Shown one piece after another: positions 1,986 through 56,213 of a DNA stretch of 64,000 nucleotides. The DNA lies in IMG/VR virus record IMGVR_UViG_3300023049_000005, positions 73,053 through 137,052 of that record; one strand, written 5' to 3'. Position numbers and translations under genes: made by a program. Source of the stretch: a virus. Position 1 is the stretch's first letter. Every line of letters starts with the position of its first letter. The notes below the pieces were generated by a model. The model saw only the letters and a program-made list of their open reading frames with translations, ran no database searches and was not told the DNA's origin.

Positions 1986-1996
1986 TTAATATATAA
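1986..1996 (+). promoter_or_regulatory. TTAATATATAA motif 3 nt upstream of start codon
   Basis: Member of recurring start-proximal motif family. Confidence 0.3.
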
Positions 1997-1999
1997 TAT

Positions 2000-2674
2000 A
2001 TGATTAAGAACTTTAAACAATTTATGATAGAAGCAACTTCATATCATAAATTAAATGATGATGATGAATATAATATTACGAAGACTATAAGAGATGATGG
2101 ACATAATTATCAATATTGTGATGGTATATTATACGAACTTTCGGGGAATGATACGAAGGTTAGTGTAGATGAAGTAGAACAAACAGAAGAAAATATGGTT
2201 TATTCAGATCAAATCAAAAGGTATATACAATATTTTAACGAAGGTGGTATAACACAAACTTTCCCTGTTCAATCAAGTCCACTAGGCGACTGTACTAATT
2301 TAGAAGCTATGTTAGAGTATTTAGATGAACCTGATAATTTTGATATGGCTTGGGATCTTTTATCTAAATATCACAGGAAGTTATTTGATATGGATAAATT
2401 TGATATCGTAAGTGATCCTGATTCATTTGGGTTTAATGATGAAATGAAGCTATCACAAATAACTAATATAAAAGATTTAGACGATGCTTATAATGAAGAT
2501 ATAATGGAAGATGAAGACAGAGAAGGTGACTATGATGAAGAATTGTACTTAGGGTTTAGTACTATATTAGAATATTGGAAAGAAAACAAAGAGTATACAC
2601 TTACTGATTTTAATCATAGGTTCGCTGCTTTAGTAGAGATGGGTAGAAAATATATACTAGTAGAAGAGGTATAA
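2000..2674 (+). CDS. Hypothetical acidic protein
   Basis: 224-aa ORF; TTAATATATAA motif 3 nt upstream of ATG. Confidence 0.5.
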   Translation: MIKNFKQFMIEATSYHKLNDDDEYNITKTIRDDGHNYQYCDGILYELSGNDTKVSVDEVEQTEENMVYSDQIKRYIQYFNEGGITQTFPVQSSPLGDCTNLEAMLEYLDEPDNFDMAWDLLSKYHRKLFDMDKFDIVSDPDSFGFNDEMKLSQITNIKDLDDAYNEDIMEDEDREGDYDEELYLGFSTILEYWKENKEYTLTDFNHRFAALVEMGRKYILVEEV

Positions 2675-2706
2675 ATACCAAAAAAAGTAACAAAAAAAAA
2701 CATTTA

Positions 2707-3894
2707 ATGGAAAGATCGATTAATGATATACTAAGGGAACAAAGAGAAAAGAGAGAAGAAGAACAAAAGTTATACGAAGATAAATATACTGAACACCAAA
2801 AGTATATAGAGCATATCAAACCTTTAAGACGAATGTATGAATCTATAGCAGCAGCTTCAACTTCTAACGCAGGTGCAGGTGGTAGTAGAAAAGAATTAGT
2901 TTTAGTTGAAGTAGACCAAGCCGCTACTGATACATTTAGGTATCAACAACCAACAGAATATGATACGATAAACGATTTAATATACTTATCAACCTCTGAC
3001 ACAACTCACAATGATCCATTATATATTACAGAAAGCGATGGACAAGGTAAATTTATCAGCTTTTTAGATACTGGCTATATAGTTCCAATAGCATTCCAAA
3101 CTTCTTATTATAAAGCAAGTACACATAATTTTTATTCTATGACCACAGAAGGTATTGTTGAGGTTAATATATCAGTTGATGGTTTTGCTAATTCTTCAAC
3201 ATCAGCTACGATAAGCTCATATTTTGAGGATCAGTTATATCCCGAAACAGGCATATTTTCAATACTATATGTCGAGGGTGATTTATTATATTGTGTGAAA
3301 TCTTTAGAAAAAGCAGATATCCCAAACGAGTGGTTAGTTATTGACAAATCAACAGGAGATATTATAAGCAGAACAAATACTACATATGTTGGAAACCAAG
3401 AGTTTCAAGCACCACGTGGGTATTTTGATCCTAATACTAACAAGTATTATTTTATACACTTTGCTAACGAGACATCATATTGGGATATAGGTGATGTGGA
3501 AGCTTTTTTCCCACCACCAATTAACCCAACAGGAGTTTTCACATATAGAGTATTTGATTTTAATACTATGACAGAAACTACATATTCTACATTAGATGTT
3601 GGAGTAGCTAAGGAATATTACTTAGGTCGTATAAGAAGAATTGTATCCGAAACTACTTGGGAATTATATGCAAATATCGGAACTACATTCGCTTTACTTA
3701 CAATAGACATAACAACAGGTAAGGTAGTAAAAGAATTAGTTAGTGATAAAGAGTTTCCTACTAACACATCTAATTTTTCTGCTTATCTCACTACTAATCC
3801 AATTATATTCTTTAATGACGTTGGTAGAGGTTCTGAAATTAAAGTTATTATGAATCAAACCGATTTCCGTGAATTAGCATTAGTATTAAAATAA
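2707..3894 (+). CDS. Hypothetical protein
   Basis: 395-aa ORF, tight spacing with neighbours. Confidence 0.5.
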   Translation: MERSINDILREQREKREEEQKLYEDKYTEHQKYIEHIKPLRRMYESIAAASTSNAGAGGSRKELVLVEVDQAATDTFRYQQPTEYDTINDLIYLSTSDTTHNDPLYITESDGQGKFISFLDTGYIVPIAFQTSYYKASTHNFYSMTTEGIVEVNISVDGFANSSTSATISSYFEDQLYPETGIFSILYVEGDLLYCVKSLEKADIPNEWLVIDKSTGDIISRTNTTYVGNQEFQAPRGYFDPNTNKYYFIHFANETSYWDIGDVEAFFPPPINPTGVFTYRVFDFNTMTETTYSTLDVGVAKEYYLGRIRRIVSETTWELYANIGTTFALLTIDITTGKVVKELVSDKEFPTNTSNFSAYLTTNPIIFFNDVGRGSEIKVIMNQTDFRELALVLK

Positions 3895-3945
3895 TATTAA
3901 CTAAGTTATGTTTTTAATATATAAGAAAAATAACCCCTTAGGATT

Positions 3946-4569
3946 ATGACAATATATGATTTACTAAAAGAATACGGATATGATGCAAATGACTTAAAAG
4001 CGAGATTTAAGAATAAGCAAATTGAATTGAATGGCGAAGTAGTGGATAAAAATGAAAAGATTGGTTTTGTAAAAGAAGTTTTTAGTCAAGGATTTTTTAT
4101 GGAAAAGCTATATGAATTACCATTTTATCCTGATTTCTCAGATCAATTAATTTTTATCGGTATTGAAAATTTAATACATGGAGAAAGTAATATCAAAAAT
4201 GAGATGACTGAATTCTTAAAAGATTATAATATGTTAAAAGTATCTAAAACTAAAGCTATTTTCTTTAGTACTTTTGATGAAAAACCTGAAGGTGATACAA
4301 TAAAAATTCAATTCCATGTTGACACTAAAGGTAAGTATGAGCAAGAGTATGAAATACCTGAGGAAAAGGATGAATCAGAAGTTATCGATAAGCTAAAAGC
4401 TGATATCGATAAAGTAGAAAAACAATTATCAAACCCAGGTTTTGTTAACAACGCACCTAAGTTTAAAGTAGATGCTGCTAAGAACAGATTAGAAACTTTA
4501 AAGAAAAAGTTAGCTGATATGGGCGTAAATGAATCTAAAGGTATTAAGAGATTTAAAGACTTTAACTAA
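3946..4569 (+). CDS. Hypothetical protein
   Basis: 207-aa ORF; TTAATATATAAG motif ~20 nt upstream. Confidence 0.5.
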   Translation: MTIYDLLKEYGYDANDLKARFKNKQIELNGEVVDKNEKIGFVKEVFSQGFFMEKLYELPFYPDFSDQLIFIGIENLIHGESNIKNEMTEFLKDYNMLKVSKTKAIFFSTFDEKPEGDTIKIQFHVDTKGKYEQEYEIPEEKDESEVIDKLKADIDKVEKQLSNPGFVNNAPKFKVDAAKNRLETLKKKLADMGVNESKGIKRFKDFN

Positions 4570-4590
4570 TATACTCAGGAGCATGTTTAT

Positions 4591-4833
4591 TTAACATCTT
4601 TCAGCAAATTCTATATTTCCCCCTTCTTCGTTTTCTTTATTTAGATTCATACTGATCCACGTATTTTCATCGGGTTCAGATATATCCTTAGTTGTCTGTA
4701 ATCTATTGTCTGTAATTGTAGGAGCATTAGTCCACGCAAGTTGTCTTCTAGTCCCTGCTTTGAATGCCTCTCTACATTTAATTTCTAATTCTTCTGAGGT
4801 ATATACCTTTTTGTTTTTCGAATCCATAAACAC
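4591..4833 (-). CDS. Hypothetical small protein
   Basis: 80-aa ORF in the gap between convergent/divergent genes; compositionally like neighbours. Confidence 0.35.
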   Translation of the reverse strand: MFMDSKNKKVYTSEELEIKCREAFKAGTRRQLAWTNAPTITDNRLQTTKDISEPDENTWISMNLNKENEEGGNIEFAERC

Positions 4834-4850
4834 AAATGTAATAATATTTT

Positions 4851-5324
4851 ATGTACTTTTGTACTATGACAGAAAATCAATTAAAAAATATCTGTAATTT
4901 TTCATTCATTTTTTTATCCTTAAATATTTATAAAGAGAGTGATATTTATATTTTAGGAAAGTGGAAAGCTATAATTGATGATGGGGATAGAATTATTGTT
5001 GATGATAAAAATAATCCTATTATATACGAAGAAGATATCGTTCCCCATTATATGTTTGGATCAGTAGTTTTAGATTCGAAATTTATTTCTATTTTCTCTT
5101 TATTGTCTGATATAAAAGAGCTATATAGAGATGTCAAATTTACTAGAAGACCATTTACATTAGATAACTTATTAGAAATTTATAGAAAATATATTGATAT
5201 AGAGCTTGTCAATAACCATTATACTGATTTTGTTATTCATGCGAATCTATTACAGTCTAGAAATGAGTGGTTAGAATTTCCTATTAATAGTAGAACATAT
5301 ACCTTAGAATTGTTTACTGATTGA
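4851..5324 (+). CDS. Hypothetical protein (true start may be the internal Met at 4866)
   Basis: 157-aa ORF. Confidence 0.45.
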   Translation: MYFCTMTENQLKNICNFSFIFLSLNIYKESDIYILGKWKAIIDDGDRIIVDDKNNPIIYEEDIVPHYMFGSVVLDSKFISIFSLLSDIKELYRDVKFTRRPFTLDNLLEIYRKYIDIELVNNHYTDFVIHANLLQSRNEWLEFPINSRTYTLELFTD

Positions 5325-5673
5325 GAACTTTATTTAAGTGAGATAACCCGTAATATATCTCGGTTACTCTTACTTTTATAACAGCTTGCCTACCTTGGTT
5401 ATTGTAATTAGCGTTCTTTTTCTTGATAAGTGCAGTTAACCATATGTAATCACCACGACTAATATCTTTAGGTACAGACATATCAAAAGTAACTGCGGAC
5501 TCATCTATTTCACTTTCTTCTAGGTTTTCTTTCTCACTAGTAGATGGATCTTCATCTAATACATCAATGATGTGATCGATTTCCCATTCACTAGGATCAA
5601 ACTTTTCTCCATCTGACTCTTCTTCTGATAAAGAGAGGTCAAAGTCTTTGAATTTTTTAATATTATCTTTCAT
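5314..5673 (-). CDS. Hypothetical acidic protein
   Basis: 119-aa ORF; TATATATA motif upstream on minus strand. Confidence 0.5.
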   Translation of the reverse strand: MKDNIKKFKDFDLSLSEEESDGEKFDPSEWEIDHIIDVLDEDPSTSEKENLEESEIDESAVTFDMSVPKDISRGDYIWLTALIKKKNANYNNQGRQAVIKVRVTEIYYGLSHLNKVLNQ

Positions 5674-5701
5674 ATAGTATATATAAAAGATAGAAGGTCA
5701 A

Positions 5702-6091
5702 TTAATTATTTAATTCACCTACGTAATCTCTGATCTCTCTAATCAACTTAGATTCTTCTACGTTTGGATATTCTCCTTTAAGAGTTTCATATAGCTTGTT
5801 TTCTTCATCTCTTAGATTCTCTATTTTCTCATTAATGGGAATATAAATATGTTCAAGTTTCTTAGATTCTATCTCGAAGTCTTTTAGTTTATCCATGATA
5901 TCTTCTCTGTATTGTTCATCAGAAGTATAATCATCAGTATTATCTTTGATCTTAATAAGACCCTGTAATACTTCTTCGATGCCCGTTTTATTTTTTTCTA
6001 ATTCTTCGGTTAAGTGTCCCATTTGGCTACTCAACTCTAAAAAATCTTTTTTAATCCTTTTGGCTTGTTCTAAATATTTCTTATTTATCAT
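5702..6091 (-). CDS. Hypothetical coiled-coil protein
   Basis: 129-aa ORF, start overlaps stop of upstream gene (ATGA). Confidence 0.5.
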   Translation of the reverse strand: MINKKYLEQAKRIKKDFLELSSQMGHLTEELEKNKTGIEEVLQGLIKIKDNTDDYTSDEQYREDIMDKLKDFEIESKKLEHIYIPINEKIENLRDEENKLYETLKGEYPNVEESKLIREIRDYVGELNN

Positions 6092-7023
6092 GACTTACTA
6101 TTTGATTTTCTGCTTTTAACATATTTTTCAATACTCTGCTTGATTTGATCTTCTAATATTTTAGGATCTTCCATTAACTTATTAAAGATATATCTACTAT
6201 AATATTCAACAGGAGATTCATCGAAATCAAAGTTATCTTCCAAGAACTTAAATACTGTCTTATCGGGTATCTTTTCGTCAATTTTAAGATCTACTTTAAG
6301 GCTATGTGTTTTCTTAGCATTATCATATACTTTATTGCCTTTCTGAACTTCTTGTTGTTCCCTATCTAATCTTTGTTGTTCCCTATCTAATCTTTGTTGT
6401 TCAATTCTAGCATTTACATCTACTGCTTTAGGTTTTTCTTTTTTATCATATGCTAGATCTTCCAATGTAGCATCCGCACTCAGTTTTTCTTTTCCTTTAG
6501 ATGGGTTTGGTGTTTGTTTCCCATACTTATTAAGAAGCTCTTGTTCTTGCTCATCAGGTGTTAACTGTCTAGGTTGATGTTGTTCAACAACACTTGTGTT
6601 ACCAACATTAGGTTGGCGTTTTTCTACAACATTACCACTCATCTTTATATGTGATTGTTGACCATGTAGACCTAAATTAACAGGTGATAAATTAACATCT
6701 CCATCATCCCCAATAGAAATAGATCTATCATTAGTACTAGGGTTTGGGTTAGCGTTATTATTAACACTATTGTTGATACCTTCTAGCATTTGCTCGTATC
6801 TATTCTTAGGTGGATTTGGATCAGGGTTATGTCTTTCGACTACTGATTGGCTTTCGTTTATACTTTGGTTGTTATTGGCTTCACTAATTTGTTTATAAAA
6901 ACTAGAATCAGATAATCTCTCCACGGCTACTCGTTCACCGTTGTTTAATGTAGCGATATTGCTCTCTACGTTTTCAACTTTGACTACCCTTCCTTTACTA
7001 TCTTCAAATTTTAATCCCTTCAT
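6088..7023 (-). CDS. Hypothetical protein with internal tandem repeat (QQRLDRE x2) and N/P/S-rich low-complexity region
   Basis: 311-aa ORF; 21-nt perfect tandem repeat at 6355..6400. Confidence 0.5.
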   Translation of the reverse strand: MKGLKFEDSKGRVVKVENVESNIATLNNGERVAVERLSDSSFYKQISEANNNQSINESQSVVERHNPDPNPPKNRYEQMLEGINNSVNNNANPNPSTNDRSISIGDDGDVNLSPVNLGLHGQQSHIKMSGNVVEKRQPNVGNTSVVEQHQPRQLTPDEQEQELLNKYGKQTPNPSKGKEKLSADATLEDLAYDKKEKPKAVDVNARIEQQRLDREQQRLDREQQEVQKGNKVYDNAKKTHSLKVDLKIDEKIPDKTVFKFLEDNFDFDESPVEYYSRYIFNKLMEDPKILEDQIKQSIEKYVKSRKSNSKS

Positions 7024-7078
7024 AATTAAGGCTTTATTTTACTTATATAGAAAAAAACCACACTTTTGTTTAAAAAAA

Positions 7079-7112
7079 TAAGGGAGAAATATAAAAATAT
7101 TTCTCCCTTATC
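7079..7112 (-). terminator. Rho-independent terminator downstream of the gp32-like gene (aagggagaaatat...atatttctccctt)
   Basis: 13-bp inverted repeat flanked by A/T runs. Confidence 0.55.
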
Positions 7113-7133
7113 AATTTTTGATGACTATTCTTA

Positions 7134-8237: not shown

Positions 8238-8404
8238 AATTTAATTACTTTTTTTTTCTGCTAACTCTTGCTAGTTATGCTATTTATGTGCTACTATGTT
8301 ATATAGATTCTTTGTTATAAAGTTTAAAACTAACTCGTTAATTTCCAAATCCTTTAATATAACTTTTTAATATATAAGTAAATAGAAAAAAGTTTTAAAA
8401 AGAG

Positions 8405-9175: not shown

Positions 9176-9176
9176 T

Positions 9177-9187
9177 TTAATATATAG
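9177..9187 (+). promoter_or_regulatory. TTAATATATAG motif 3 nt upstream of start codon
   Basis: Recurring motif. Confidence 0.3.
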
Positions 9188-9190
9188 GTT

Positions 9191-11884: not shown

Positions 11885-11916
11885 ACTTTATTTTATTTAT
11901 TAATATAAAAAGTAAA

Positions 11917-12330
11917 ATGAAAATAGATAAGAGCAATTATAGCCTAGTATTAATGTTTAGTACTGAAGGCAATTACAATGGATCTTTCAACGTTGTATAC
12001 AAAGACAGAATTTTTTCTAAAGAAACTGAAATATATGATGCTTCATATATAACAGAAGAAGAAAAGGGTTATCCTCTTTCTGATACATTGAAAAAGTCTT
12101 TGAAACAAATTGGAGGAATAATAGGAAAGGAATTTTCCAAAAAAGGATATGTTGTTTCTAATATTCATCTAGAATATTCACCCAATAAAGGAAACATTAA
12201 AATAATGTTTGCAACAGGAGATAATACAAACGAAGTTTCTTTTTCACTAATGGAGAATAAGCAAGTGTGTAAAAAGGCATTAAGTCTTTCTAGAAGTATA
12301 TCAAATTATATGATGAAGAAATTAAAGTAA
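11917..12330 (+). CDS. Hypothetical protein
   Basis: 137-aa ORF. Confidence 0.45.
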   Translation: MKIDKSNYSLVLMFSTEGNYNGSFNVVYKDRIFSKETEIYDASYITEEEKGYPLSDTLKKSLKQIGGIIGKEFSKKGYVVSNIHLEYSPNKGNIKIMFATGDNTNEVSFSLMENKQVCKKALSLSRSISNYMMKKLK

Positions 12331-13463: not shown

Positions 13464-13642
13464 ATTTATATTTTAGATTTTTCGGTATAACACCAAATCT
13501 TATATAAATAGAAACAGAAAAAGTTTCGATATATCGAGTAAAATAATTTAATATATAGTTTAATAGACGAGACAATAGGAAATAAGAAAAAAGTGAGAAA
13601 AAAACAATAATATATATTATAGAAAAAATAAAAGAAATTAAT

Positions 13643-15130: not shown

Positions 15131-15499
15131 ATGTACTTATCATCAAAAAAATTATTCTGTGAGATCATCATTTCAAAAGCAAAAGGAGATCTTACTAGGA
15201 AAGCACAATCTATGCTAATATTATTAGCAGATAGAACAATAGAGAAATTCACATACTATGACCCTGAAGATAAATTTGATTGTTATCAACAAGGGCTATA
15301 CGATCTGTTTAAGAATTGGCATTTGTTTAATGAACAAAAATCAGAGAATGCGTTTGCATACCTAACAGAAATATTTAAGCGTGGTGCTACACAAGGGCTG
15401 AATAAGATTCATAAAAGAAAGGGGTCTGATGGTACTAATATAAAAGTTTATAGTATAGACAGTATTAATGATGGGCAAGGAATGCATAATATCATTTAA
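15131..15499 (+). CDS. Late-transcription sigma factor, T4 gp55-like
   Basis: 122 aa; QSMLILLADRT..., NAFAYLTEIFKRGATQGLNKIHKRK parallels T4 gp55 GLAIMLIAEG... [23 protein letters not shown]. Confidence 0.65.
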   Translation: MYLSSKKLFCEIIISKAKGDLTRKAQSMLILLADRTIEKFTYYDPEDKFDCYQQGLYDLFKNWHLFNEQKSENAFAYLTEIFKRGATQGLNKIHKRKGSDGTNIKVYSIDSINDGQGMHNII

Positions 15500-15510
15500 A
15501 TATATACTGT

Positions 15511-16616: not shown

Positions 16617-16717
16617 ATGTAATAAATTATTTTATATTATATAACAAAGGTAGTTATTAGTTTTTGTTTTAGGGGAATAAAATTTATCAAATATATAGAA
16701 AAAATATAAACGAGTAT

Positions 16718-18779: not shown

Positions 18780-18795
18780 ATACTATATATTTGTT

Positions 18796-19149: not shown

Positions 19150-19180
19150 GTTTTATATATTAAAATTAAATATATAGTAT

Positions 19181-20921: not shown

Positions 20922-21201
20922 TATCATTTTTGAACTAGTAGGTCTTATTTGTTTATCTACATTATCAGTAAACGCAACTCCTGTGTTATGGATAAGACAC
21001 AAATTAGGAATATATCAAATGGATGACGATAATAGCTTTTTAAAGAATAAGTTAATTGAGTTATTGTCTTGTCCTATGTGCTTAGGGTTTTGGATAGGTT
21101 TTGGATTTCTGATCACGTCCTATTCCCTATTTGATACTATTTTATTAGCAAGTATAATTTCTATTTTTTCTGAATTATTAAATAAGTTACTAAGAATGTA
21201 A
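20914..21201 (+). CDS. Small membrane protein
   Basis: 95 aa, two hydrophobic helices. Confidence 0.4.
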   Translation: MSNIIFELVGLICLSTLSVNATPVLWIRHKLGIYQMDDDNSFLKNKLIELLSCPMCLGFWIGFGFLITSYSLFDTILLASIISIFSELLNKLLRM

Positions 21202-21227
21202 TATATAAAGAAAAAGAAAATGTAACC

Positions 21228-21449
21228 ATGGATGAAAAAGTAAAACACATTATCAAAGAAGTACACGCAAATAATGGTAAAGTGCCTGCTCATATTGTAG
21301 ACCAAATGTTTGAAGTACATAACCAACTATTTCCTAAAACAATGGAATTCAATAAAGGGTGTGGTACGTGTAGAAAAAGGACATTCGGAAGAATTCAAAC
21401 ATATTTTAATGATAACATAAATAACCTAGGTAATACTTCTTTTGGTTAA
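21228..21449 (+). CDS. Hypothetical small protein
   Basis: 73-aa ORF. Confidence 0.35.
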   Translation: MDEKVKHIIKEVHANNGKVPAHIVDQMFEVHNQLFPKTMEFNKGCGTCRKRTFGRIQTYFNDNINNLGNTSFG

Positions 21450-21459
21450 TATATAGTTT

Positions 21460-22348: not shown

Positions 22349-22419
22349 ATAGTAAATATAATAAATATTTTTTAGGGGATGGTTTTATTTATATATAAAT
22401 AAAATATTTTAAAATATAA

Positions 22420-24493: not shown

Positions 24494-24638
24494 ATAGTAT
24501 ATATTTTTAATTAAATACTAATATGTGGTATATAGATATAATATATAAGATAATTAAAGATAATACAATTATTTGCTGATTTTAGAAAAAAGGCGTTTTC
24601 TAAGGTAAATATATAGTATAAGAAAAATAATATAACCT

Positions 24639-26885: not shown

Positions 26886-26980
26886 GATCCAAAAACTATC
26901 ACTTAAAGTTGAAAAACGGAAAAAACACGCTTTTTAATGTGAATATATACTATAAGTGAAATAAAAAAAATAAAGTTAAA

Positions 26981-28693: not shown

Positions 28694-28714
28694 TAACTAC
28701 ATAAATATATTACA

Positions 28715-28751
28715 GAAAAAACTCTTTGGTTCGCCAAAGAGTTTTTTTTTG
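28715..28751 (+). terminator. Rho-independent terminator after capsid gene (actctttgg-ttcg-ccaaagagt + T9)
   Basis: 9-bp perfect stem, TTCG loop, 9 T. Confidence 0.75.
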
Positions 28752-28778
28752 TTTATATTTGTCTAATATATAAGGTAC

Positions 28779-30401: not shown

Positions 30402-30444
30402 TTTTTAATATATACTTTAACAAAAAAATAACTTACTGATACTG

Positions 30445-32861: not shown

Positions 32862-32926
32862 ATTTAAGTTTCATTATTTTATATATAAAAATATTAGAAT
32901 AAGTTTTAGCAAAATTAAATAAAAGA

Positions 32927-34119: not shown

Positions 34120-34156
34120 ATCTTATATATTAAAAGTCATTATACAAATATATGAT

Positions 34157-34167
34157 TTAATATATAA
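34157..34167 (+). promoter_or_regulatory. TTAATATATAA motif 3 nt upstream of start codon
   Basis: Recurring motif. Confidence 0.3.
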
Positions 34168-34170
34168 ACC

Positions 34171-34846: not shown

Positions 34847-35374
34847 ATGGAATTTATACCTGATTACCATTTAGAAGAATGGGATGAAATAGAAGAGAAT
34901 GTTTTCGAAAAAGAGAATTTGAGAATAGCCGTAATAGAGGATCGAAATGTGCTTTATATAAAAGACAAAGGAAACACCTTTAGGGAAATAAAAGATATCA
35001 CGAATTATTGGGAATATAGAAGTTTGGATATGTTTTTAAATACTGAAACAAATGGCGATCAAGATAATTACGAATATCAACATGATTTCTTTATGTATAT
35101 CAGAGATAATTTCCAACACTATGATTACTTAGTATTTGATAAATCTAATAACCAAGTATACGGGCATAATGGTTTATTTGATGTTGATAATAAATGGGCA
35201 GACCAAGAAATGAAACAGAAATATAAAGATGGTAAAGTATTTATAGTTGATGTTTCTTATGATATATTGCCTTTATGTTATGATGAAGGATGGAAAGACA
35301 TTGATATTATGTCATATAAAGAAGCTGTAGTGGAACATAGAGATAAGAAGATATCAGAAGTGCTTAATATATAA
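34847..35374 (+). CDS. Hypothetical protein
   Basis: 175-aa ORF. Confidence 0.45.
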   Translation: MEFIPDYHLEEWDEIEENVFEKENLRIAVIEDRNVLYIKDKGNTFREIKDITNYWEYRSLDMFLNTETNGDQDNYEYQHDFFMYIRDNFQHYDYLVFDKSNNQVYGHNGLFDVDNKWADQEMKQKYKDGKVFIVDVSYDILPLCYDEGWKDIDIMSYKEAVVEHRDKKISEVLNI

Positions 35375-38150: not shown

Positions 38151-38219
38151 ATCTTATATATTAAATCACAAAATGATCAAAAAGGTGCAACATTATAATA
38201 TAATAGAATTTATTAAGTA

Positions 38220-38522: not shown

Positions 38523-38772
38523 CTTGTTCTTTCTTTAATTTATATATTAGATCTTTTATCTCAGGTTTATCATATACTACCTTGGAATGATTTTTATATG
38601 AATATATAACTTCTTCTTCATAATCAATATAAAAGGTTCTACCTAATATATTGAATGTTCTCTTATAAACATCGGAGATATGTTTTACTCTTTTAATAAT
38701 TTGACTAGTGATATAATCACAGGTTAGGGTTTGATCTCTTATAATAAAACAAAAGAAATCTTTTATACTCAT
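38509..38772 (-). CDS. Hypothetical small protein
   Basis: 87-aa ORF, overlaps neighbours by few codons. Confidence 0.4.
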   Translation of the reverse strand: MSIKDFFCFIIRDQTLTCDYITSQIIKRVKHISDVYKRTFNILGRTFYIDYEEEVIYSYKNHSKVVYDKPEIKDLIYKLKKEQDELP

Positions 38773-39568: not shown

Positions 39569-39675
39569 TATATATAAATTTAGGAAAACTGATTTATTCG
39601 AAATTGGGAAAATAATTGAAAAAAAAAAGCAACGACTGTAATAGCCACTGCTTTAATTATTGAGGTAGTAATATT

Positions 39676-40880: not shown

Positions 40881-40892
40881 TTAATATATAAG
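40881..40892 (+). promoter_or_regulatory. TTAATATATAAG motif 2 nt upstream of start codon
   Basis: Recurring motif. Confidence 0.3.
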
Positions 40893-41982: not shown

Positions 41983-42228
41983 TTCATTAACTGTCTTAAA
42001 GGGTAATAATTCTAACTTATTGTTTTTTTTTATTATAATAAGTCTTTATATCATTAGCTAAAAATCCGTTATTCTCTTTAATGTAGATGAAATTATTTCT
42101 ATTATTTCCCATAATTTGTCTATTTATTACAGCAAATATAACCAATTTTAATTAAATATAGGCTAAAAGACCTATAAGTACTTAATATAGTCTTATATGG
42201 CTATAATTAAGTTTTTTATATATAATTC

Positions 42229-44811: not shown

Positions 44812-44954
44812 AATCTTATTATTTTATAATCTACCCATACCACAAAGTTAAGGATTTTATTTAAATATATACATTATATAGGTATATAGTATAAACTGTA
44901 AAATACCACTTTTAGAAGTTAATATATATATTAGAAAAAAAATATTTAAACAAT

Positions 44955-48812: not shown

Positions 48813-48870
48813 ATTGTTTAAACTTTTTTCCTATATTTGATACATATATAAAACACCAATATATAGTAAT

Positions 48871-52593: not shown

Positions 52594-52638
52594 GTAGTAT
52601 ATAGTAAAAAAACACTTTTATAAAATAATATATATTTT

Positions 52639-52920
52639 ATGAGAAAATTAACCAATGAAAAATCTATATCTAAGGTGGATAGTGTACACAAAGGTTTATA
52701 TAAATATGATAAAACTAATTATGATATGTGTATAGAATATGATGGTATCCAACATTATAAACCTGTAGATTTTTTTGGAGGAATAAAAACACTTAAGGAT
52801 ATTAAAAAAAGAGACAATATAAAAACAAAATATTGTCAAGAAAACAATATAAAATTAATAAGAATCCCTTATAATAAAGAGGTTATAGAGTTAATGGAAA
52901 GTATTAATTTTAATATATAG
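52639..52920 (+). CDS. Stand-alone mini Vsr/DUF559-like nuclease domain protein
   Basis: 93 aa; CIEYDGIQHY ... NIKLIRIPY mirrors IEFNGLYWH...LVHVW core of the two HE-like proteins. Confidence 0.45.
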   Translation: MRKLTNEKSISKVDSVHKGLYKYDKTNYDMCIEYDGIQHYKPVDFFGGIKTLKDIKKRDNIKTKYCQENNIKLIRIPYNKEVIELMESINFNI

Positions 52921-52950: not shown

Positions 52951-53583
52951 ATGTCACCTTTACCACACTTCTCACAAGTAAACTCACACGGGTCAACACA
53001 CCCAAATACCGAGCAGATATTCGAACCTGTTTATCCATCGTTATTTGAAGTAACATTTGTACTACCTACAATCGTGCAAGATCAGGGTAGAGACCCACTT
53101 CTTCTTTTAGAAAACGCAACAAGCGTTGAAGGAATCGAAGTACACAAAGCATTAGGAACACAGGAACAACGTTTCAAGTACAGTACTAGAATGTTCTTAA
53201 CAATGCCTGAAAATACATCAATCGATGGACTTAATATTAAGTTCAACGTAAATGTCGGAAACGCAGGTGATGTATTTAACTATAACGCATTAAGAGCATG
53301 GTATGATTTAGCTTGGAACTCACAAAACGGTACACTCGCTTATAAGAGAGACATCGTTGGTACAATTGTAATCAACCATCACGACAGAAAAGGTTTCGTA
53401 ATTAGAAGAATTACTTTACATAACTGTCAAATCAAAAACATCGGAGGATATTTAGATTCTGTTGATTGGAGTGATACTACTTCAATACTTACTGACGTAA
53501 ATGCAGAATTTGTAGTAGACTATTGGACAGATGAAAGAGTAGATCTTGATACATCTGATATTGGTAATGTATATGGCACATAA
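52951..53583 (+). CDS. Tail tube protein, T4 gp19-like
   Basis: 210 aa; C-terminus AEFVVDYWTDE parallels gp19 EVTLALDYWE; downstream of sheath. Confidence 0.65.
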   Translation: MSPLPHFSQVNSHGSTHPNTEQIFEPVYPSLFEVTFVLPTIVQDQGRDPLLLLENATSVEGIEVHKALGTQEQRFKYSTRMFLTMPENTSIDGLNIKFNVNVGNAGDVFNYNALRAWYDLAWNSQNGTLAYKRDIVGTIVINHHDRKGFVIRRITLHNCQIKNIGGYLDSVDWSDTTSILTDVNAEFVVDYWTDERVDLDTSDIGNVYGT

Positions 53584-53617
53584 ATAGCTTATTCATATTC
53601 CTATTTTTTTTTTTTTT

Positions 53618-54645: not shown

Positions 54646-54979
54646 AAAAGAAGTCGCTGAGGGTACTAAATTAAAAGCAGAATGCAATTTCTTAAAAGAA
54701 TACTTCTCCTTATTTATGATAGATGATGAAGCACTTAATCGAAATATGTGGTTATTGTCTATTAGATCTAAAGGTGGCTTGTCTATTGGTGAAATAGAAA
54801 GAATGGCTTTTTGGAGATATGAAAGGTATGTCGATATTGCTAACAAACTAGCTGAGGAAGAGAAAGACGAAAGGAAAAAACAAGAAGAAAAACAGAAAAA
54901 CCAAAGTCAAAATAAGTCTGCTAACCCTAGTAGTTATCTTAATAAGATAAGTGGTATGGCTAACAAATTCAAATCCTAA
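54554..54979 (+). CDS. Hypothetical protein overlapping previous gene in +1 frame (likely start at internal ATG 54617; frameshift fusion not excluded)
   Basis: Open +1 frame through last 92 nt of 53734..54645. Confidence 0.4.
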   Translation: MVRRSALMRYFPKGLVGYSFNMMPLILSLHKKEVAEGTKLKAECNFLKEYFSLFMIDDEALNRNMWLLSIRSKGGLSIGEIERMAFWRYERYVDIANKLAEEEKDERKKQEEKQKNQSQNKSANPSSYLNKISGMANKFKS

Positions 54980-54980
54980 T

Positions 54981-54991
54981 TTAATATATAG
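54981..54991 (+). promoter_or_regulatory. TTAATATATAG motif 6 nt upstream of start codon
   Basis: Recurring motif. Confidence 0.3.
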
Positions 54992-54997
54992 TGTACG

Positions 54998-55441
54998 ATG
55001 GAAATAACTACACTAATAAACGATTTTTATGACTTTATAGTATATGGTATAAGTGAATACTTATTCGTGTTCAATTTACACTATATTTTAGCATATATAA
55101 CCATTTTAGTGGGTATTAAGTACACAAATAACTTTAAATGGTATGAAAAACTACTTAATAAAGTAAAGTTATCTGCTGCACCATTTACGGGATTTTTACT
55201 TATATTAGCATATACTTTCATAGGTACGGGTGGGATAAGTGTTGAAACAGTTGTTTCACTGTTACAATCTTTTATTATAACACTATCTTTACAAGATGTA
55301 TTCATCGTTCTATTTGGAGTCCTACTTAATAAACTAACATTTGGTATGATTAAACTTGATCATAATAAAAGGTCTATTATCTATGTTAAGACTAATAAAA
55401 ATAATGATGATGTTGAATTAGATAAGAAACAAGAAGATTAA
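54998..55441 (+). CDS. Membrane protein (3-4 TM)
   Basis: 147 aa hydrophobic; TTAATATATAG 6 nt upstream. Confidence 0.45.
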   Translation: MEITTLINDFYDFIVYGISEYLFVFNLHYILAYITILVGIKYTNNFKWYEKLLNKVKLSAAPFTGFLLILAYTFIGTGGISVETVVSLLQSFIITLSLQDVFIVLFGVLLNKLTFGMIKLDHNKRSIIYVKTNKNNDDVELDKKQED

Positions 55442-56169
55442 TACTTTAAATAATTTCTAATAAACTTTATAACACTAGAATTAATCCCTCTGAATGTCAT
55501 TGGTTTTTCAGACTTTTGTTTAGCTTTAATATCATATTGTCTAAGTAGATCAGCTACTTCATCTTCGTGTAAATATATATCTTCAACAGGATCATATATA
55601 GCATGAGGCATATCAATACCAAGACCCTTTTGTTTAAATGGTAAATTAGGATCAGTTTTATCTCCCTTTTCACCGAAATGTCCTCTTACTCCTTTAGATG
55701 GGTTTCCATAATTTACTCCCCAATTACCAACGTGCGCACCTTGTCCATAACCAGGGGCATTTACGTCACCACTATCAGGTGTTTGGTGATTAGATTCTTT
55801 AATTGATTCATAAAAATCTAAATCTACTTTAGTAGCTAATTCATAATCATAATAAAACATATCACTTAGGCTTTTAGATAAACCTTCTTTTAAAATATTC
55901 TTATCTCCTTGTAGTAAGAACACCTCAACTTCTACATTATCTTCATCAATTTCATTGACTTTTATTTTAAATAAATGCTTATTTAGATCTTCGTCTATGA
56001 AAGAAAAATCACCTCTGAATCCTACATACTCTTTTTCGAATAATGATTCAACAGCAGTTTCTCTGTTCATTGTTGTTAATTCACCTTCACTGTCACTCAC
56101 TTTGAATATCAGTTTGAAGTCAGCTTTGTTACCACTGTTAAAGTTTTCGTATAGTTTTAAATATTTCAT
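55438..56169 (-). CDS. Hypothetical protein
   Basis: 243-aa ORF. Confidence 0.5.
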   Translation of the reverse strand: MKYLKLYENFNSGNKADFKLIFKVSDSEGELTTMNRETAVESLFEKEYVGFRGDFSFIDEDLNKHLFKIKVNEIDEDNVEVEVFLLQGDKNILKEGLSKSLSDMFYYDYELATKVDLDFYESIKESNHQTPDSGDVNAPGYGQGAHVGNWGVNYGNPSKGVRGHFGEKGDKTDPNLPFKQKGLGIDMPHAIYDPVEDIYLHEDEVADLLRQYDIKAKQKSEKPMTFRGINSSVIKFIRNYLKY

Positions 56170-56202
56170 ATAGTATATATTAAAGTTCGTATCTGATTAT
56201 TT

Positions 56203-56213
56203 TTAATATATAG
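56203..56213 (+). promoter_or_regulatory. TTAATATATAG motif 3 nt upstream of start codon
   Basis: Recurring motif. Confidence 0.3.

What the first reader, a model, noticed from the sequence alone, without database searches (positions are those of the whole stretch)
1986..56213. Recurring TTAATATATA(R) motif 2-26 nt upstream of start codons on both strands
The motif occurs before at least 18 genes. Plus-strand examples start at 1986, 3914, 8367, 9177, 16695, 19165, 28768, 34157, 40881, 44922, 54981, 56203. Minus-strand equivalents lie upstream of 5673, 24493, 34119, 38150, 56169. A related palindromic version (TTTTATATATAAAA) sits in the divergent region between the tmRNA and 32927. It resembles the T4 late-promoter core TATAAATA and could be recognised by the gp55-like sigma encoded at 15131..15499. 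In most cases it ends only 2-8 nt before the ATG. That would imply very short or leaderless transcripts (compatible with SD-less translation), or a role in translation initiation rather than transcription.
Basis: seen in the sequence. Interest (0 to 1): 0.55.

Follow-up and report, generated by a model that had tools for sequence, protein, structure and literature searches.

The report
Megaphage late promoter giving leaderless genes
A short all-A/T box (TTAATATATA) in front of half the genes of this giant T4-like phage is most likely its late-gene promoter, and it sits so close to many start codons that those messages would begin directly at the AUG, which is rare in the phage's probable Bacteroidota hosts.

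Summary
TTAATATATA occurs 18 times against 3.1 expected. Its core ATATATA is followed by exactly 4 nt and ATG 18 times against 1.3 expected. The core is 4.6-fold enriched between genes and 3-fold depleted inside them.

The window comes from a T4-like megaphage whose nearest relatives are the 630-735 kb "Mahaphage" genomes predicted to infect Bacteroidetes.

The box precedes 37 of 74 genes. These include portal, prohead protease, major capsid, sheath, tail tube and terminase, but not the gp32-like or gp55-like genes.

Box-to-ATG spacing is bimodal, at 4-8 nt or 18-31 nt, with nothing between. The fifth base after the box is A in 32 of 33 sites, the base before it is usually a pyrimidine, and no -35 element is present.

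All of this recurs in 41 non-redundant related loci, including one with 55% GC.

ORF 15131-15499 is a minimal gp55 homologue. Its top structural match is T4 gp55 (TM 0.76), and four of seven base-pocket or DNA-contact residues are identical.

Best reading: a gp55-type late promoter with a new consensus, starting transcription on the A of ATG for about a quarter of the genes. No transcript data exist, so start sites, timing and the sigma-box pairing are inferred.

The parts
15131..15499 (+). gp55-like minimal late sigma (122 aa). Candidate reader of the box. The gene itself has no box upstream.
   Evidence: PHROG_234 'late sigma transcription factor', E 2.9e-6. A 21-sequence profile has T4 gp55 (7d7c_F) as top PDB hit, E 0.059. 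The AF2 model (pLDDT 82) has 7d7c_F as top Foldseek hit: prob 1.00, TMq 0.76, rmsd 1.5 A.
1989..1995 (+). Box, 4 nt before ATG 2000 (224 aa). Leaderless class.
5678..5684 (-). Box (TTTATATATA variant), 4 nt before ATG 5673 (119 aa).
9180..9186 (+). Box, 4 nt before ATG 9191 (897 aa).
15500..15506 (+). Box directly after the stop codon of the gp55-like gene (which ends at 15499), 4 nt before ATG 15511 (158 aa).
18784..18790 (-). Box, 4 nt before ATG 18779 (147 aa).
19154..19160 (-). Box, 4 nt before ATG 19149 (117 aa). Back-to-back with the next box in a 31-bp intergenic region.
19170..19176 (+). Box, 4 nt before ATG 19181 (144 aa).
21449..21455 (+). Box, 4 nt before ATG 21460 (235 aa, gp2-like DNA end protector).
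   Evidence: Orthologues have the box at either 4-6 or 16-21 nt, never in between.
24498..24504 (-). Box (AAAATATATA variant), 4 nt before ATG 24493 (124 aa, SNase-like).
34124..34130 (-). Box, 4 nt before ATG 34119 (213 aa). Divergent pair in a 51-bp intergenic region.
34160..34166 (+). Box, 4 nt before ATG 34171 (152 aa).
35367..35373 (+). Box inside the 3' end of the upstream gene, 4 nt before ATG 35378 (113 aa).
38155..38161 (-). Box, 4 nt before ATG 38150 (167 aa).
40884..40890 (+). Box, 4 nt before ATG 40895 (222 aa).
42218..42224 (+). Box (TTTATATATA variant), 4 nt before ATG 42229 (745 aa, large terminase).
52628..52634 (+). Box, 4 nt before ATG 52639 (93 aa).
56174..56180 (-). Box, 4 nt before ATG 56169 (243 aa). 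Divergent pair in a 47-bp intergenic region.
56206..56212 (+). Box, 4 nt before ATG 56217 (700 aa, weak tape-measure-like hit).
48859..48865 (+). Box, 5 nt before ATG 48871 (574 aa, DUF7487 protein). Near-leaderless.
28766..28772 (+). Box, 6 nt before ATG 28779 (540 aa, DUF7487 + REase). Follows the terminator after the capsid gene.
54984..54990 (+). Box, 7 nt before ATG 54998 (147 aa). An A lies 5 nt after the box, giving a predicted 3-nt leader.
38541..38547 (-). Box, 18 nt before ATG 38522 (100 aa). Leadered class.
16691..16697 (+). Box, 20 nt before ATG 16718 (173 aa). Leadered.
21201..21207 (+). Box, 20 nt before ATG 21228 (73 aa). Leadered.
3917..3923 (+). Box, 22 nt before ATG 3946 (207 aa). 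Leadered.
22391..22397 (+). Box, 22 nt before ATG 22420 (gp20-type portal). Leadered.
   Evidence: The box is conserved in 30 of 34 orthologous loci.
24609..24615 (+). Box, 23 nt before ATG 24639 (gp21-type prohead protease/scaffold). Leadered.
   Evidence: The box is conserved in about 37 of 40 orthologous loci.
44922..44930 (+). Box in two overlapping registers, 24-26 nt before ATG 44955 (1269 aa, sheath). Leadered.
13610..13616 (+). Box, 26 nt before ATG 13643 (429 aa, conserved, function unknown). Leadered.
   Evidence: Conserved in 12 of 14 orthologous loci.
8370..8376 (+). Box, 28 nt before the TTG at 8405 (256 aa). Leadered. The start codon is uncertain.
30408..30414 (+). Box, 30 nt before ATG 30445 (81 aa). 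Leadered.
26943..26949 (+). Box, 31 nt before ATG 26981 (gp23-type major capsid protein). Leadered.
   Evidence: The box is conserved about 25-40 nt upstream in about 33 of 38 related loci.
52913..52919 (+). Box, 31 nt before ATG 52951 (210 aa, tail tube). Leadered.
13551..13557 (+). Second box (TTAATATATA) upstream of 13643, 85 nt before the ATG. Possible tandem promoter.
24541..24547 (+). Second box upstream of the protease gene, 91 nt before the ATG. Possible tandem promoter.
44865..44871 (+). Second box upstream of the sheath gene, 83 nt before the ATG. Possible tandem promoter.
32877..32890 (.). Palindromic TTTTATATATAAAA. On the minus strand it lies 18 nt upstream of the tmRNA 5' end (32861). 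On the plus strand it lies 39 nt upstream of ATG 32927.
58341..58347 (+). Box, 8 nt before ATG 58356. The fifth base after it is T. Uncertain member.
2650..2656 (+). Box inside the 3' end of gene 2000-2674, 50 nt before ATG 2707. Uncertain member.
39569..39575 (-). Box abutting the TTG start called for ORF 39251-39568. Start codon doubtful. Uncertain member.

Best explanation
The (T)TAATATATA box, with core ATATATA, is the late-gene promoter of this T4-like megaphage. It is a lone -10-like element without a -35 partner.

The host RNA polymerase core reads it once it has been reprogrammed by the phage's minimal gp55-type sigma, encoded at 15131-15499. Transcription starts on an A about 5 nt downstream of the box, so that AATATATA occupies -12 to -5.

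In 18 genes of the window that A is the A of the ATG start codon, so these late mRNAs are leaderless. Four more genes have box-to-ATG spacings of 5-8 nt, which would leave at most a few nucleotides of leader. In 12 genes, including portal, protease, capsid, sheath and tail tube, the same promoter lies 18-31 nt upstream. That gives a 14-27 nt A-rich leader without a Shine-Dalgarno sequence, of the type Bacteroidota ribosomes use.

Shown here:
- the motif, its statistics and its geometry;
- its conservation across the clade;
- the gp55 homology of the ORF.

Inferred:
- that it is a promoter;
- late timing;
- that this sigma reads this box;
- the exact start site, and therefore leaderless translation.
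For: 1. **Non-random placement.**
   - TTAATATATA occurs 18 times against 3.1 expected.
   - ATATATA-N4-ATG occurs 18 times against 1.3 expected. The Poisson P against the other spacings is 1.7e-15.
   - The core is found 47 times against 10 expected in intergenic DNA, but 22 times against 64 expected in coding DNA.
2. **Promoter-like anatomy.** There is no information from -51 to -16. T is favoured at -15 to -13 and A at -12. The base at -1 is T in 23 of 33 sites. The base at +1 is A in 32 of 33 sites, including 12 of 13 sites where that A is not part of an ATG.
3. **Gene class.**
   - The box precedes portal, prohead protease, major capsid protein, sheath, tail tube, large terminase and a gp2-like end protector. 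A one-base variant precedes the gp4-like head-closure gene.
   - It is absent upstream of the gp32-like SSB, the gp55-like gene itself and adenylosuccinate synthetase.
4. **Bimodal spacing.**
   - In the window: 4-8 nt (22 genes) or 18-31 nt (12 genes), none at 9-17 nt.
   - In 41 non-redundant related loci: 44, 30 and 12 sites at 4, 5 and 6 nt. Only 12 sites lie at 7-15 nt. A broad peak covers 16-33 nt.
   - Orthologues of one gene (g21460) switch between 4-6 and 16-21 nt, never in between.
5. **Phylogenetic footprint.** The box is kept upstream of orthologous portal, protease, capsid and other genes at 35-60% protein identity while the flanks diverge. A 55% GC relative, L062, still has 11 ATATATA copies in 12 kb, nearly all just before ATGs.
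6. **Host geometry.**
   - In Flavobacterium the 8-nt sigma-A box lies at -12 to -5, with 4 or 5 nt to the start site (PMC6847099; PMC9723704).
   - That equals the 4 nt (window) and 4-5 nt (relatives) between this box and the A of ATG.
7. **Class-specific bases.**
   - The base at -1 is a pyrimidine in 100% of close-spaced genes in the window and 86% in relatives, against 50-62% in the other classes.
   - Close-spaced genes lack the A-rich -13 to -19 tract that leadered genes carry.
8. **The sigma.**
   - The gp55-like ORF is supported by PHROG_234, the PDB profile hit and the fold match to T4 gp55.
   - It keeps T4 residues N13, F86, Y97 and T99, which contact the flipped -10-like bases (PMC7892883).
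Against: - No transcript 5' ends, expression timing or binding data exist for this or any related phage.
- The box differs from T4's TATAAATA, and TATAAATA shows no spacing peak here. With the inferred start site, only T-13, A-12 and A-9 coincide with T4, and T4's flipped A-8 is a T.
- The gp55-like protein has only four helices and 122 aa. It lacks the fifth helix of the helix-loop-helix motif that is important for T4 gp55 activity.
- No gp33 or gp45 homologue was identified in the window.
- Several box-bearing genes, and the tmRNA, have no known 'late' role.
- The A 5 nt after the box in leadered sites is less diagnostic in the relatives (72% A, in leaders that are 56-70% A overall).
- The host is inferred only from relatives.
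Confidence: 0.65

Rival explanations
1. The box is a real promoter with the inferred geometry, but something other than the gp55-like protein reads it. Candidates are a host alternative sigma, host sigma-A on a degenerate -7 box, or another phage factor or polymerase encoded outside the window.
For: - The sigma-box pairing is only an inference.
- The box occupies the same -12 to -5 position as the host TAnnTTTG box and shares A-11, T-8 and T-6 with it.
- The gp55-like protein lacks the T4 helix-loop-helix fifth helix.
- Only 64 kb of a contig of at least 207 kb was examined.
Against: - Three nearly invariant sigma-A positions (T-12, T-7, G-5) are A, A and A in the box.
- Neither TAnnTTTG nor sigma-70-type promoters are enriched in the window.
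- The gp55 homologue occurs in the related genomes that carry the box and keeps the base-pocket residues.
- The box sits in front of virion genes, as gp55-dependent promoters do in T4.
Confidence: 0.15
2. The box is a promoter, but the copies 4 nt from an ATG do not start transcription on the ATG. The true start lies elsewhere, or these genes are mainly translated from read-through polycistronic RNAs. In that case the mRNAs are not leaderless.
For: - Start sites are inferred.
- In T4 P23 the start is the sixth base after the box, which here would be the T of the ATG.
- Several close-spaced genes follow another gene on the same strand (9191, 15511, 21460, 35378) and could be read from upstream transcripts.
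- Relatives show spacings of 4, 5 and 6 nt rather than one value.
Against: - A at +1 and a pyrimidine at -1 are conserved relative to the box, also where no ATG is involved.
- The empty 7-15 nt zone in 336 + 37 sites is what selection against short, non-functional leaders predicts.
- The 4 or 5 nt box-to-start distance is the documented one for Bacteroidetes polymerase.
- Three divergent gene pairs have only 31-51 bp between their start codons, filled by the two boxes. That leaves no room for other promoters outside coding DNA.
Confidence: 0.1
3. The motif acts at the RNA level as a translation-initiation element, for example an unstructured AU-rich ribosome or S1 landing site that replaces a Shine-Dalgarno sequence. 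It would lie within longer 5' UTRs.
For: - It lies just upstream of start codons in a genome without Shine-Dalgarno sequences.
- Bacteroidetes use upstream A/U-rich context rather than Shine-Dalgarno pairing (PMC6847099).
Against: - A ribosome-positioning element should keep one distance to the AUG. Here the same motif sits at 4-6 or at 16-33 nt, with nothing between.
- Leadered genes carry a separate A-rich tract at -13 to -19, between box and ATG. That tract matches the known Bacteroidetes element, and close-spaced genes lack it.
- A at -3, a positive translation determinant in Bacteroidetes, falls to 15% in the close-spaced class against about 50% elsewhere.
- The motif is depleted 3-fold in coding DNA on both strands.
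- It precedes a tmRNA gene, which is not translated from a start codon.
Confidence: 0.05
4. The motif is an RNA processing site, with an endonuclease cutting just downstream to create mature 5' ends. Alternatively it is merely low-complexity AT-rich intergenic sequence.
For: - The genome is 70% A+T, and the motif is a simple alternating repeat.
- Processing could also generate AUG-proximal 5' ends.
Against: - Composition-matched controls fail to reproduce it.
- The motif persists in a 55% GC relative, where about 0.7 copies would be expected from composition (my estimate) and 11 are found.
- Orientation and conservation in front of orthologous genes argue for function.
- The association with virion genes and the absence of upstream promoters in the 31-51 bp divergent regions do not fit processing of longer precursors.
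Confidence: 0.03

Closest known systems
Bacteriophage T4 late promoters (TATAAATA at -13 to -6) read by gp55, with gp33 and the gp45 sliding clamp
   Same: - A single A/T-only box of about 8 bp at the -10 position, with no -35 element (PMC2988020).
- It lies in front of head, tail and packaging genes of a phage with T4-type gp20, gp21, gp23, gp17 and gp18 homologues.
- The phage encodes a gp55 homologue with the sigma region 2 fold and conserved base-pocket residues.
- The sigma gene itself is not under the box.
   Different: - The consensus is (TT)AATATATA, not TATAAATA. The published T4-family variants (KVP40, 44RR, S-PM2, Aeh1) stay close to TATAAATA.
- The box is inferred to lie one base closer to the start site.
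- The sigma is 122 aa with four helices, without the fifth helix of the T4 helix-loop-helix motif.
- Dependence on gp33 and a sliding clamp is unknown.
- About a quarter of all genes place the box so that the start site coincides with the ATG, which is not a feature of T4.
Bacteroidota primary promoters (-7 box TAnnTTTG at -12 to -5, with 4-5 nt to the start site)
   Same: - Same box length and the same inferred position (-12 to -5), with the same 4-5 nt distance to the start site.
- Leaders downstream are A-rich and lack Shine-Dalgarno sequences, with an A-rich tract near -13 to -19.
   Different: - The sequence differs at three nearly invariant positions: A in place of T-12, T-7 and G-5.
- Only 5.5% of Flavobacterium psychrophilum mRNAs are leaderless, and 87% of F. 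johnsoniae transcripts have leaders longer than 10 nt.
- Here 18-22 of 34 confidently box-driven genes are leaderless or nearly so.
Leaderless gene organisation in Actinobacteria, Deinococcus and Archaea (a -10 or TATA-like box at fixed distance from the start codon, as modelled by GeneMarkS-2)
   Same: A promoter box at a fixed short distance from ATG, with no ribosome-binding site. This is the accepted sequence signature of leaderless transcription (PMC6028130 and PMC3160421, listed; not read in detail).
   Different: - Here it is a phage-encoded programme using a phage sigma, in a host phylum where leaderless mRNAs are uncommon.
- It coexists with a leadered class driven by the same box.
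Poxvirus late promoters (TAAATG), where initiation overlaps the start codon (recalled from general knowledge, not tested)
   Same: A viral late-promoter core abuts or overlaps the ATG, so late mRNAs have essentially no templated leader.
   Different: It is an unrelated polymerase and mechanism (slippage adds a poly(A) leader) in a eukaryotic host. This is an analogy only.

Membership tests
T4-type (gp55-dependent) late promoter | A single A/T-rich box of about 8 bp at the -10 position, with no conserved -35 element | tested here: met
   33 aligned sites carry at most 0.26 bits per position from -51 to -16. Information is confined to -15 to -5, -1 and +1. Positions are relative to an inferred start site.
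T4-type (gp55-dependent) late promoter | Consensus TATAAATA or a close variant | tested here: not met
   The core is ATATATA or AATATATA. TATAAATA (31 copies) shows no preferred spacing to ATG. Published T4-family variants stay close to TATAAATA.
T4-type (gp55-dependent) late promoter | Located in front of virion-structure and packaging genes, not replication or regulatory genes | tested here: met
   Present at portal, protease, capsid, sheath, tail tube, terminase and the gp2-like gene. Absent at the gp32-like and gp55-like genes and at adenylosuccinate synthetase. The same pattern holds in relatives.
T4-type (gp55-dependent) late promoter | Phage encodes a gp55 homologue | tested here: met
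   ORF 15131-15499: PHROG_234, E 2.9e-6. Its fold best matches T4 gp55 7d7c_F, TMq 0.76.
T4-type (gp55-dependent) late promoter | Activation through gp33 and the gp45 sliding clamp, coupled to DNA replication | not testable with these tools
   No gp33 or gp45 homologue was recognised among the roughly 30 window proteins scanned. Most of the genome lies outside the window. This needs biochemistry.
T4-type (gp55-dependent) late promoter | Transcription starts about 6 nt downstream of the box and occurs late in infection | not testable with these tools
   No transcript data exist. Indirect support: a conserved A 5 nt after the box and a pyrimidine before it.
gp55 protein family | Sigma region 2-like helical fold that docks on the beta' clamp helices | tested here: met
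   AF2 model pLDDT 82 with four helices. Foldseek top hit is 7d7c_F, prob 1.00, rmsd 1.5 A over 104 columns. The next hits are sigma-32, SigA and RpoS region 2.
gp55 protein family | Residues shown in T4 to bind the flipped -12, -9 and -8 bases (N13, L54, R57, F86, H95, Y97, T99) | tested here: inconclusive
   N13, F86, Y97 and T99 are identical. R57 becomes K, H95 becomes F and L54 becomes T in the HMMER alignments (residue list from PMC7892883). The changes could underlie the different box, but this was not tested.
gp55 protein family | Helix-loop-helix motif (long H4 plus H5) that holds the template strand | tested here: not met
   The model has only H1-H4, and residues 101-122 are disordered. 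All 43 homologues are 120-128 aa. T4 gp55 is 185 aa with five helices.
gp55 protein family | Conserved C-terminal sliding-clamp-binding tail after a variable linker | tested here: inconclusive
   The family has a variable stretch followed by a conserved, predicted-disordered C-terminus, SIDSxNDGQGMHNI. This has the right architecture, but similarity to T4 clamp-binding motifs was not demonstrated.
Leaderless protein-coding genes | Promoter box at a fixed short distance upstream of the start codon, with no room for a ribosome-binding site | tested here: met
   18 genes have exactly 4 nt between box and ATG. In relatives the spacing is 4-6 nt. In 12 of the 18 the end of the box plus the next base forms an in-frame TAA or TAG, so the ORF cannot start further upstream (sequences).
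Leaderless protein-coding genes | mRNA 5' end coincides with the A of AUG | not testable with these tools
   This requires 5'-end mapping. It is supported only by geometry.
Bacteroidota sigma-A promoter | -7 box TAHHTTTG with T-12, A-11, T-8, T-7, T-6 and G-5 nearly invariant | tested here: not met
   The box has A-12, A-7 and A-5. TANNTTTG is not enriched in the window: 83 found, 94 expected.

The most novel reading that the evidence does not exclude
The Mahaphage-type megaphages run a dedicated leaderless-translation programme. A phage sigma starts a large share of late mRNAs directly on AUG, in hosts whose own mRNAs are almost all leadered. The phage's own translation genes then bias ribosomes toward these 5'-AUG messages. 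Those genes include the tmRNA and tRNAs seen here, and the S21, S1 and initiation factors reported in related huge phages. This would give late phage mRNAs privileged translation and would explain why such phages carry translation-initiation genes. Orthologous genes flipping between spacings of 4-6 nt and 16 nt or more would then reflect tuning of expression between two initiation pathways.
Probability: 0.15. Interest if true: 0.8.

Novelty: new variant of a known kind. Interest (0 to 1): 0.6.

Why it matters
**Regulatory map for uncultivated phages.** The largest known phages are known only from metagenomes, and nothing is known about how they time gene expression. The paper that described the nearest relatives contains no promoter analysis. 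Five literature searches found no description of this motif. A conserved, easily scanned box would give a first regulatory map of these genomes. It would separate late genes from early ones, define transcription units and fix start codons.

**Evolution of gp55 specificity.** The finding would also show that the T4 gp55 system has diverged to a new specificity with a pared-down 122-aa sigma.

**Leaderless translation in Bacteroidota.** It predicts that a quarter of the genes are translated from leaderless mRNAs in a host phylum where that is rare. This makes the open question of how SD-independent and leaderless initiation work in Bacteroidota directly testable. It also bears on why huge phages carry translation-initiation genes.

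**Practical use.** The box-N4-ATG signature is a strong start-codon and gene-calling cue for this clade.

Tried and rejected
- **Near-identical DNA in the phage collection.** None was found. Relatives were reached only through protein searches.
- **Host-type promoters as an alternative signal.** TANNTTTG is not enriched (83 found, 94 expected). Sigma-70-type -35/-10 pairs are not enriched either (110 found, 123 expected). A few intergenic TATATTTG boxes exist, but some are just the reverse complement of CAAATATATA late boxes.
- **T4 consensus.** TATAAATA shows no spacing peak.
- **A split gp55 or a gp33.** I tested whether the neighbouring 158-aa ORF (15511-15987) supplies the missing part of gp55 or is a gp33. 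It has no PHROG hit, and its only PDB sequence hits are weak and spurious (annexin). The idea was dropped. Its near-C-terminal 'DTDFLF' was noted but not pursued.
- **Breadth of the box.**
  - Lak-B1 (26% GC) shows no spacing peak.
  - Tenacibaculum phage PTm1 shows ATACATA rather than ATATATA upstream of late genes. That 7-mer is not enriched overall (13 found, 15.7 expected), so it remains a hint.
- **Transcript evidence.** An exact look-up of the capsid protein returned two assemblies (ENA ERZ27315366 and Logan SRR7141805). Neither has an informative contig end.
- **A first Markov-simulation script timed out** and was replaced by analytic expectations.
- **Start of the protease gene.** A public gene call places it 14 codons downstream of my ORF start. 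Orthologue alignments support the upstream ATG, so I kept it.

Full report

Yes. Exact TTAATATATA occurs 18 times on both strands, against 3.13 +/- 1.56 in dinucleotide-preserving shuffles (largest 7).

Three of them ('16695', '19165', '28768') and two minus-strand cases (upstream of 5673 and 24493) are one-base variants sharing the core ATATATA. The palindromic TTTTATATATAAAA is at 32877-32890.

The informative unit is the core ATATATA, usually as TTAATATATA.
- In the 9.5% of the window that is intergenic, the core occurs 47 times against 10.3 expected from a first-order Markov model.
- In coding DNA it occurs 22 times against 64.3 expected.
- Intergenic TTAATATATA occurs 15 times against 0.6 expected.

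So the motif is concentrated between genes and avoided within them.

**2. What is the window?**

It is a 30% GC phage segment with these T4-type genes:

| Gene | Coordinates |
|---|---|
| gp20-type portal | 22420-24117 |
| gp21-type prohead protease | 24639-26885 |
| gp23-type major capsid protein | 26981-28693 |
| large terminase | 42229-44466 |
| sheath | 44955-48764 |
| tail tube | 52951-53583 |
| gp4-like head closure | 19612-20148 (-) |
| gp2-like end protector | 21460-22167 |
| gp32-like SSB | 7134-8237 (-) |

It also carries six tRNAs and a tmRNA confirmed by Rfam.

The capsid protein is 48-58% identical to the uncultured 634-735 kb genomes LR745206 and LR756501-LR756504. It is about 28% identical to the Prevotella Lak phages and Tenacibaculum phage PTm1. 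Al-Shayeb et al. 2020 (PMC7162821) placed the genomes above 634 kb in their 'Mahaphage' clade and predicted Bacteroidetes hosts. Their paper contains no promoter analysis.

The window itself lies on a 206,690-bp ENA contig. Upstream regions lack Shine-Dalgarno sequences, which fits a Bacteroidota host.

**3. Anatomy**

37 of 74 genes have ATATATA within 63 nt upstream on the coding strand. The distance from the end of the core to the start codon is strikingly bimodal:

| Spacing | Genes |
|---|---|
| exactly 4 nt | 18 |
| 5-8 nt | 4 |
| 9-17 nt | 0 |
| 18-31 nt | 12 |

The remaining three sites, at 0, 39 and 50 nt, are listed as uncertain in the parts table.

- ATATATA-N4-ATG occurs 18 times against 1.34 expected. 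Compared with the other spacings of the same motif, the Poisson P is 1.7e-15.
- Among all 35 7-mers of the same composition, only ATATATA and its two overlapping shifts show such a peak.
- I aligned 33 sites on the box and counted the fifth downstream base as +1. No position from -51 to -16 carries more than 0.26 bits, so there is no -35 element.
- T is favoured at -15 to -13 and A at -12. The box spans -11 to -5. Position -1 is T in 23 of 33 sites. Position +1 is A in 32 of 33.
- The A at +1 is present in 12 of the 13 sites where it is not part of an ATG. These include every gene with 18-31 nt spacing and the two genes with 6 and 7 nt spacing.
- The conserved A is therefore tied to the box, not to the start codon.
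- In 12 of the 18 close-spaced genes, the last two bases of the box plus the next base form an in-frame TAA or TAG. These ORFs therefore cannot begin further upstream (sequences).

**4. Which genes carry the box?**

- With the box: portal, protease, capsid, sheath, tail tube (all leadered), terminase, the gp2-like protein and a tape-measure-like protein (all at 4 nt), plus many small ORFs.
- The gp4-like head-closure gene has a one-base variant (ATTATATA).
- Without the box: the gp32-like SSB, the gp55-like gene, adenylosuccinate synthetase, a dehydrogenase and a lipoprotein-like gene.

This is the partition expected of a late promoter in a T4-like phage. A strong terminator (28714-28749) separates the capsid gene from the next box.

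**5. Comparative evidence**

I fetched about 42 kb around the capsid gene from four Mahaphage genomes and 64 IMG/VR loci. These reduce to 41 non-redundant loci.

- The box is retained 25-40 nt upstream of the capsid ATG in about 33 of 38 loci.
- It is retained upstream of the portal in 30 of 34 loci, the protease in about 37 of 40, and the 13643 orthologue in 12 of 14. Flanks and distances vary.
- The gp55-like gene lacks the box in 8 of 9 loci.
- Across 336 box-to-ORF pairs in these loci the spacing is again bimodal:

| Spacing | Sites |
|---|---|
| 4 nt | 44 |
| 5 nt | 30 |
| 6 nt | 12 |
| 7-15 nt | 12 in all |
| 16-33 nt | broad peak |

- Orthologues of the gp2-like gene have the box at 4-6 nt in nine loci and at 16-21 nt in seventeen, never in between.
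- One relative, L062, is 55% GC yet carries 11 ATATATA copies in 12 kb. I estimate about 0.7 expected from composition. Nearly all of them lie 4-5 nt or a leader's length before an ATG. This rules out a compositional artefact.

**6. The sigma**

ORF 15131-15499 (122 aa) matches PHROG_234, 'late sigma transcription factor', at E 2.9e-6.

- Homologues of 120-128 aa occur in the Mahaphage genomes, Lak phages, Chryseobacterium and Tenacibaculum jumbo phages, and Xanthomonas phage Xoo-sp13. In Xoo-sp13 the gene is annotated as the late sigma.
- A 21-sequence profile has T4 gp55 (7d7c_F) as its best PDB hit: E 0.059, residues 3-103 aligned to 10-122.
- An AlphaFold model (pLDDT 82) has 7d7c_F as top Foldseek hit: probability 1.00, TMq 0.76, rmsd 1.5 A over 104 columns. 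The next hits are sigma region 2 structures.
- Seven T4 gp55 residues impair open-complex formation when mutated (PMC7892883). Of these, N13, F86, Y97 and T99 are identical here. R57 is K, H95 is F and L54 is T.
- Unlike T4 gp55, which has five helices and 185 aa, this protein has only helices H1-H4. They are followed by a variable linker and a conserved disordered tail, SIDSxNDGQGMHNI.

It is therefore a gp55 homologue in minimal form. That it reads this particular box is an inference from co-occurrence and from the T4 precedent.

**7. Why leaderless?**

- In Flavobacterium the primary-sigma box TAHHTTTG occupies -12 to -5, and bona fide promoters have 4 or 5 nt between box and start site (PMC6847099; PMC9723704).
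- AATATATA followed by 4 nt (window) or 4-5 nt (relatives) and then ATG reproduces that geometry, with the A of ATG as +1.
- The pyrimidine at -1 and purine at +1 match the general start-site preference of bacterial RNA polymerase (my own knowledge). They are specific to the close-spaced class: 100% pyrimidine at -1 in the window and 86% in relatives, against 50-62% in the other classes.
- Leadered genes carry an A-rich tract peaking at -13 to -19 (A 75-92% in the window). This corresponds to the A-rich -12 to -15 element proposed to bind bS1 in F. johnsoniae. Close-spaced genes have T-rich promoter-upstream sequence there instead, and only 15% A at -3.
- The empty 7-15 nt zone is what one expects if a message must either begin at the AUG or have a leader long enough for the leadered pathway.
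- Three divergent gene pairs (19149/19181, 34119/34171, 56169/56217) have only 31, 51 and 47 bp between their start codons. These stretches are essentially filled by two back-to-back boxes.

**8. Rivals**

- **A translation element** should hold one distance to the AUG. It does not explain depletion in coding DNA, the separate A-rich tract, or the copy 18 nt upstream of the tmRNA.
- **Host sigma-A** is unlikely, because three nearly invariant positions differ and TAnnTTTG is not enriched.
- **Another phage factor** outside the window cannot be excluded.
- **A start site offset by a base or two**, or translation mainly from read-through RNAs for the internal genes, also remains possible.
- **Chance or low complexity** is excluded.

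**9. Comparison with what is known**

Functionally this looks like the T4 late system. As to membership:
- The box fails the TATAAATA consensus test, whereas described T4-family variants stay close to it.
- The sigma fails the helix-loop-helix test.
- Dependence on gp33 and gp45 is untested.

I therefore file it as a new variant of a known kind. It is a gp55-type late promoter with a new consensus and a minimal sigma, combined with widespread leaderless gene starts.

For comparison, leaderless mRNAs are 5.5% of F. psychrophilum mRNAs. Here 18 of 74 genes, and 18-22 of 34 confidently box-driven genes, are of that type. More distant relatives differ: PTm1 shows ATACATA in front of its late genes and no close-spaced class, and Lak-B1 shows no peak. 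Five literature searches found no prior description.

**10. Limits**

Everything rests on sequence. There are no transcript ends, no expression timing and no binding data, and the host is inferred from relatives. My confidence by step is about:
- 0.85 that the box is a promoter;
- 0.7 that the close-spaced genes yield leaderless or near-leaderless mRNAs;
- 0.65 that the gp55-like protein is its reader.

Noticed in passing
window 32486-32861 (-), 32877-32890: A phage-encoded tmRNA is confirmed by Rfam (RF00023, 59.3 bits against a gathering score of 47) and by ARAGORN. It has an unusual 27-residue tag ending in LAV. The palindromic box lies 18 nt upstream of its 5' end, so the tmRNA may be transcribed from the same promoter type with a leader of about 14 nt that would need processing.
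   Followed up: partly
window 223-710: A tight array of six tRNA genes (four Lys, three of them TTT and one CTT, and two Phe GAA). One is an 89-nt Lys. No box lies within 220 nt upstream.
   Followed up: no
window, upstream of leadered genes (e.g. 26950-26980, 24616-24638, 44931-44954); relatives L001-L068: Leadered genes carry an A-rich tract (often AAAAAATAA) peaking at -13 to -19 from the ATG. A is 75-92% there in the window and 65-84% in relatives. It resembles the A-rich -12 to -15 element of Flavobacterium johnsoniae mRNAs and is absent from the close-spaced class.
   Followed up: partly
window 13551-13557 / 13610-13616; 24541-24547 / 24609-24615; 44865-44871 / 44922-44930: Three genes (13643, the prohead protease and the sheath) each have two boxes 57-68 bp apart upstream. 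These are possibly tandem promoters for highly expressed genes.
   Followed up: no
window 19150-19180, 34120-34170, 56170-56216: Three divergent gene pairs have only 31, 51 and 47 bp between their start codons. Each region holds two back-to-back boxes, each 4 nt from its own ATG. The two polymerase footprints would overlap.
   Followed up: partly
window 28779-30401 and 48871-50595: Two paralogous DUF7487 proteins sit directly downstream of the capsid and sheath genes; only the first (28779-30401) also shows a weak REase_MTES_1575 hit, below Pfam's cut-off. Each has a TATATTTG (like the Bacteroidetes -7 box, at 28754 and 48832) plus a late box 6 or 5 nt from the ATG. PTm1 has a 'Hef-like homing endonuclease' two genes downstream of its capsid gene (one small ORF between). 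They look like mobile endonuclease genes with dual promoters.
   Followed up: no
L062 (IMGVR_UViG_3300020176_000134), 1-12212: This relative has 55% GC, whereas the rest of the clade has 25-33%. It keeps the AT-only box in front of its genes, with 11 copies in 12 kb.
   Followed up: partly
L069 (Tenacibaculum phage PTm1, AP019524) 1552-24413: Upstream of portal, capsid and several other genes, PTm1 has ATACATA instead of ATATATA, 25-45 nt before the ATG. 11 of 13 copies are on the gene strand, but the 7-mer is not enriched overall (13 found, 15.7 expected). It may be a sister specificity of the same sigma family.
   Followed up: partly
window 15511-15987: The 158-aa ORF immediately after the gp55-like gene, in the close-spaced class, has 'YYDTDFLF' near its C-terminus. 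This is reminiscent of the hydrophobic and acidic clamp-binding tails of T4 gp33, gp43 and gp55. It has no family or structure hit, so a gp33-like role is pure speculation.
   Followed up: partly
window 802-1926 (-), 12429-13463 (-), 30989-31504 (-), 31574-32404 (-), 24119-24493 (-): Auxiliary genes: adenylosuccinate synthetase (Pfam E 1.4e-119), a dehydrogenase, and NADAR, Band_7/lipoprotein-like and SNase-like proteins. Only the SNase-like gene carries the box.
   Followed up: no
window 24639 vs 24681: A public gene call on the source contig starts the prohead protease 14 codons downstream of the first ATG (734 aa instead of 748 aa). Orthologue alignments support the upstream ATG.
   Followed up: partly
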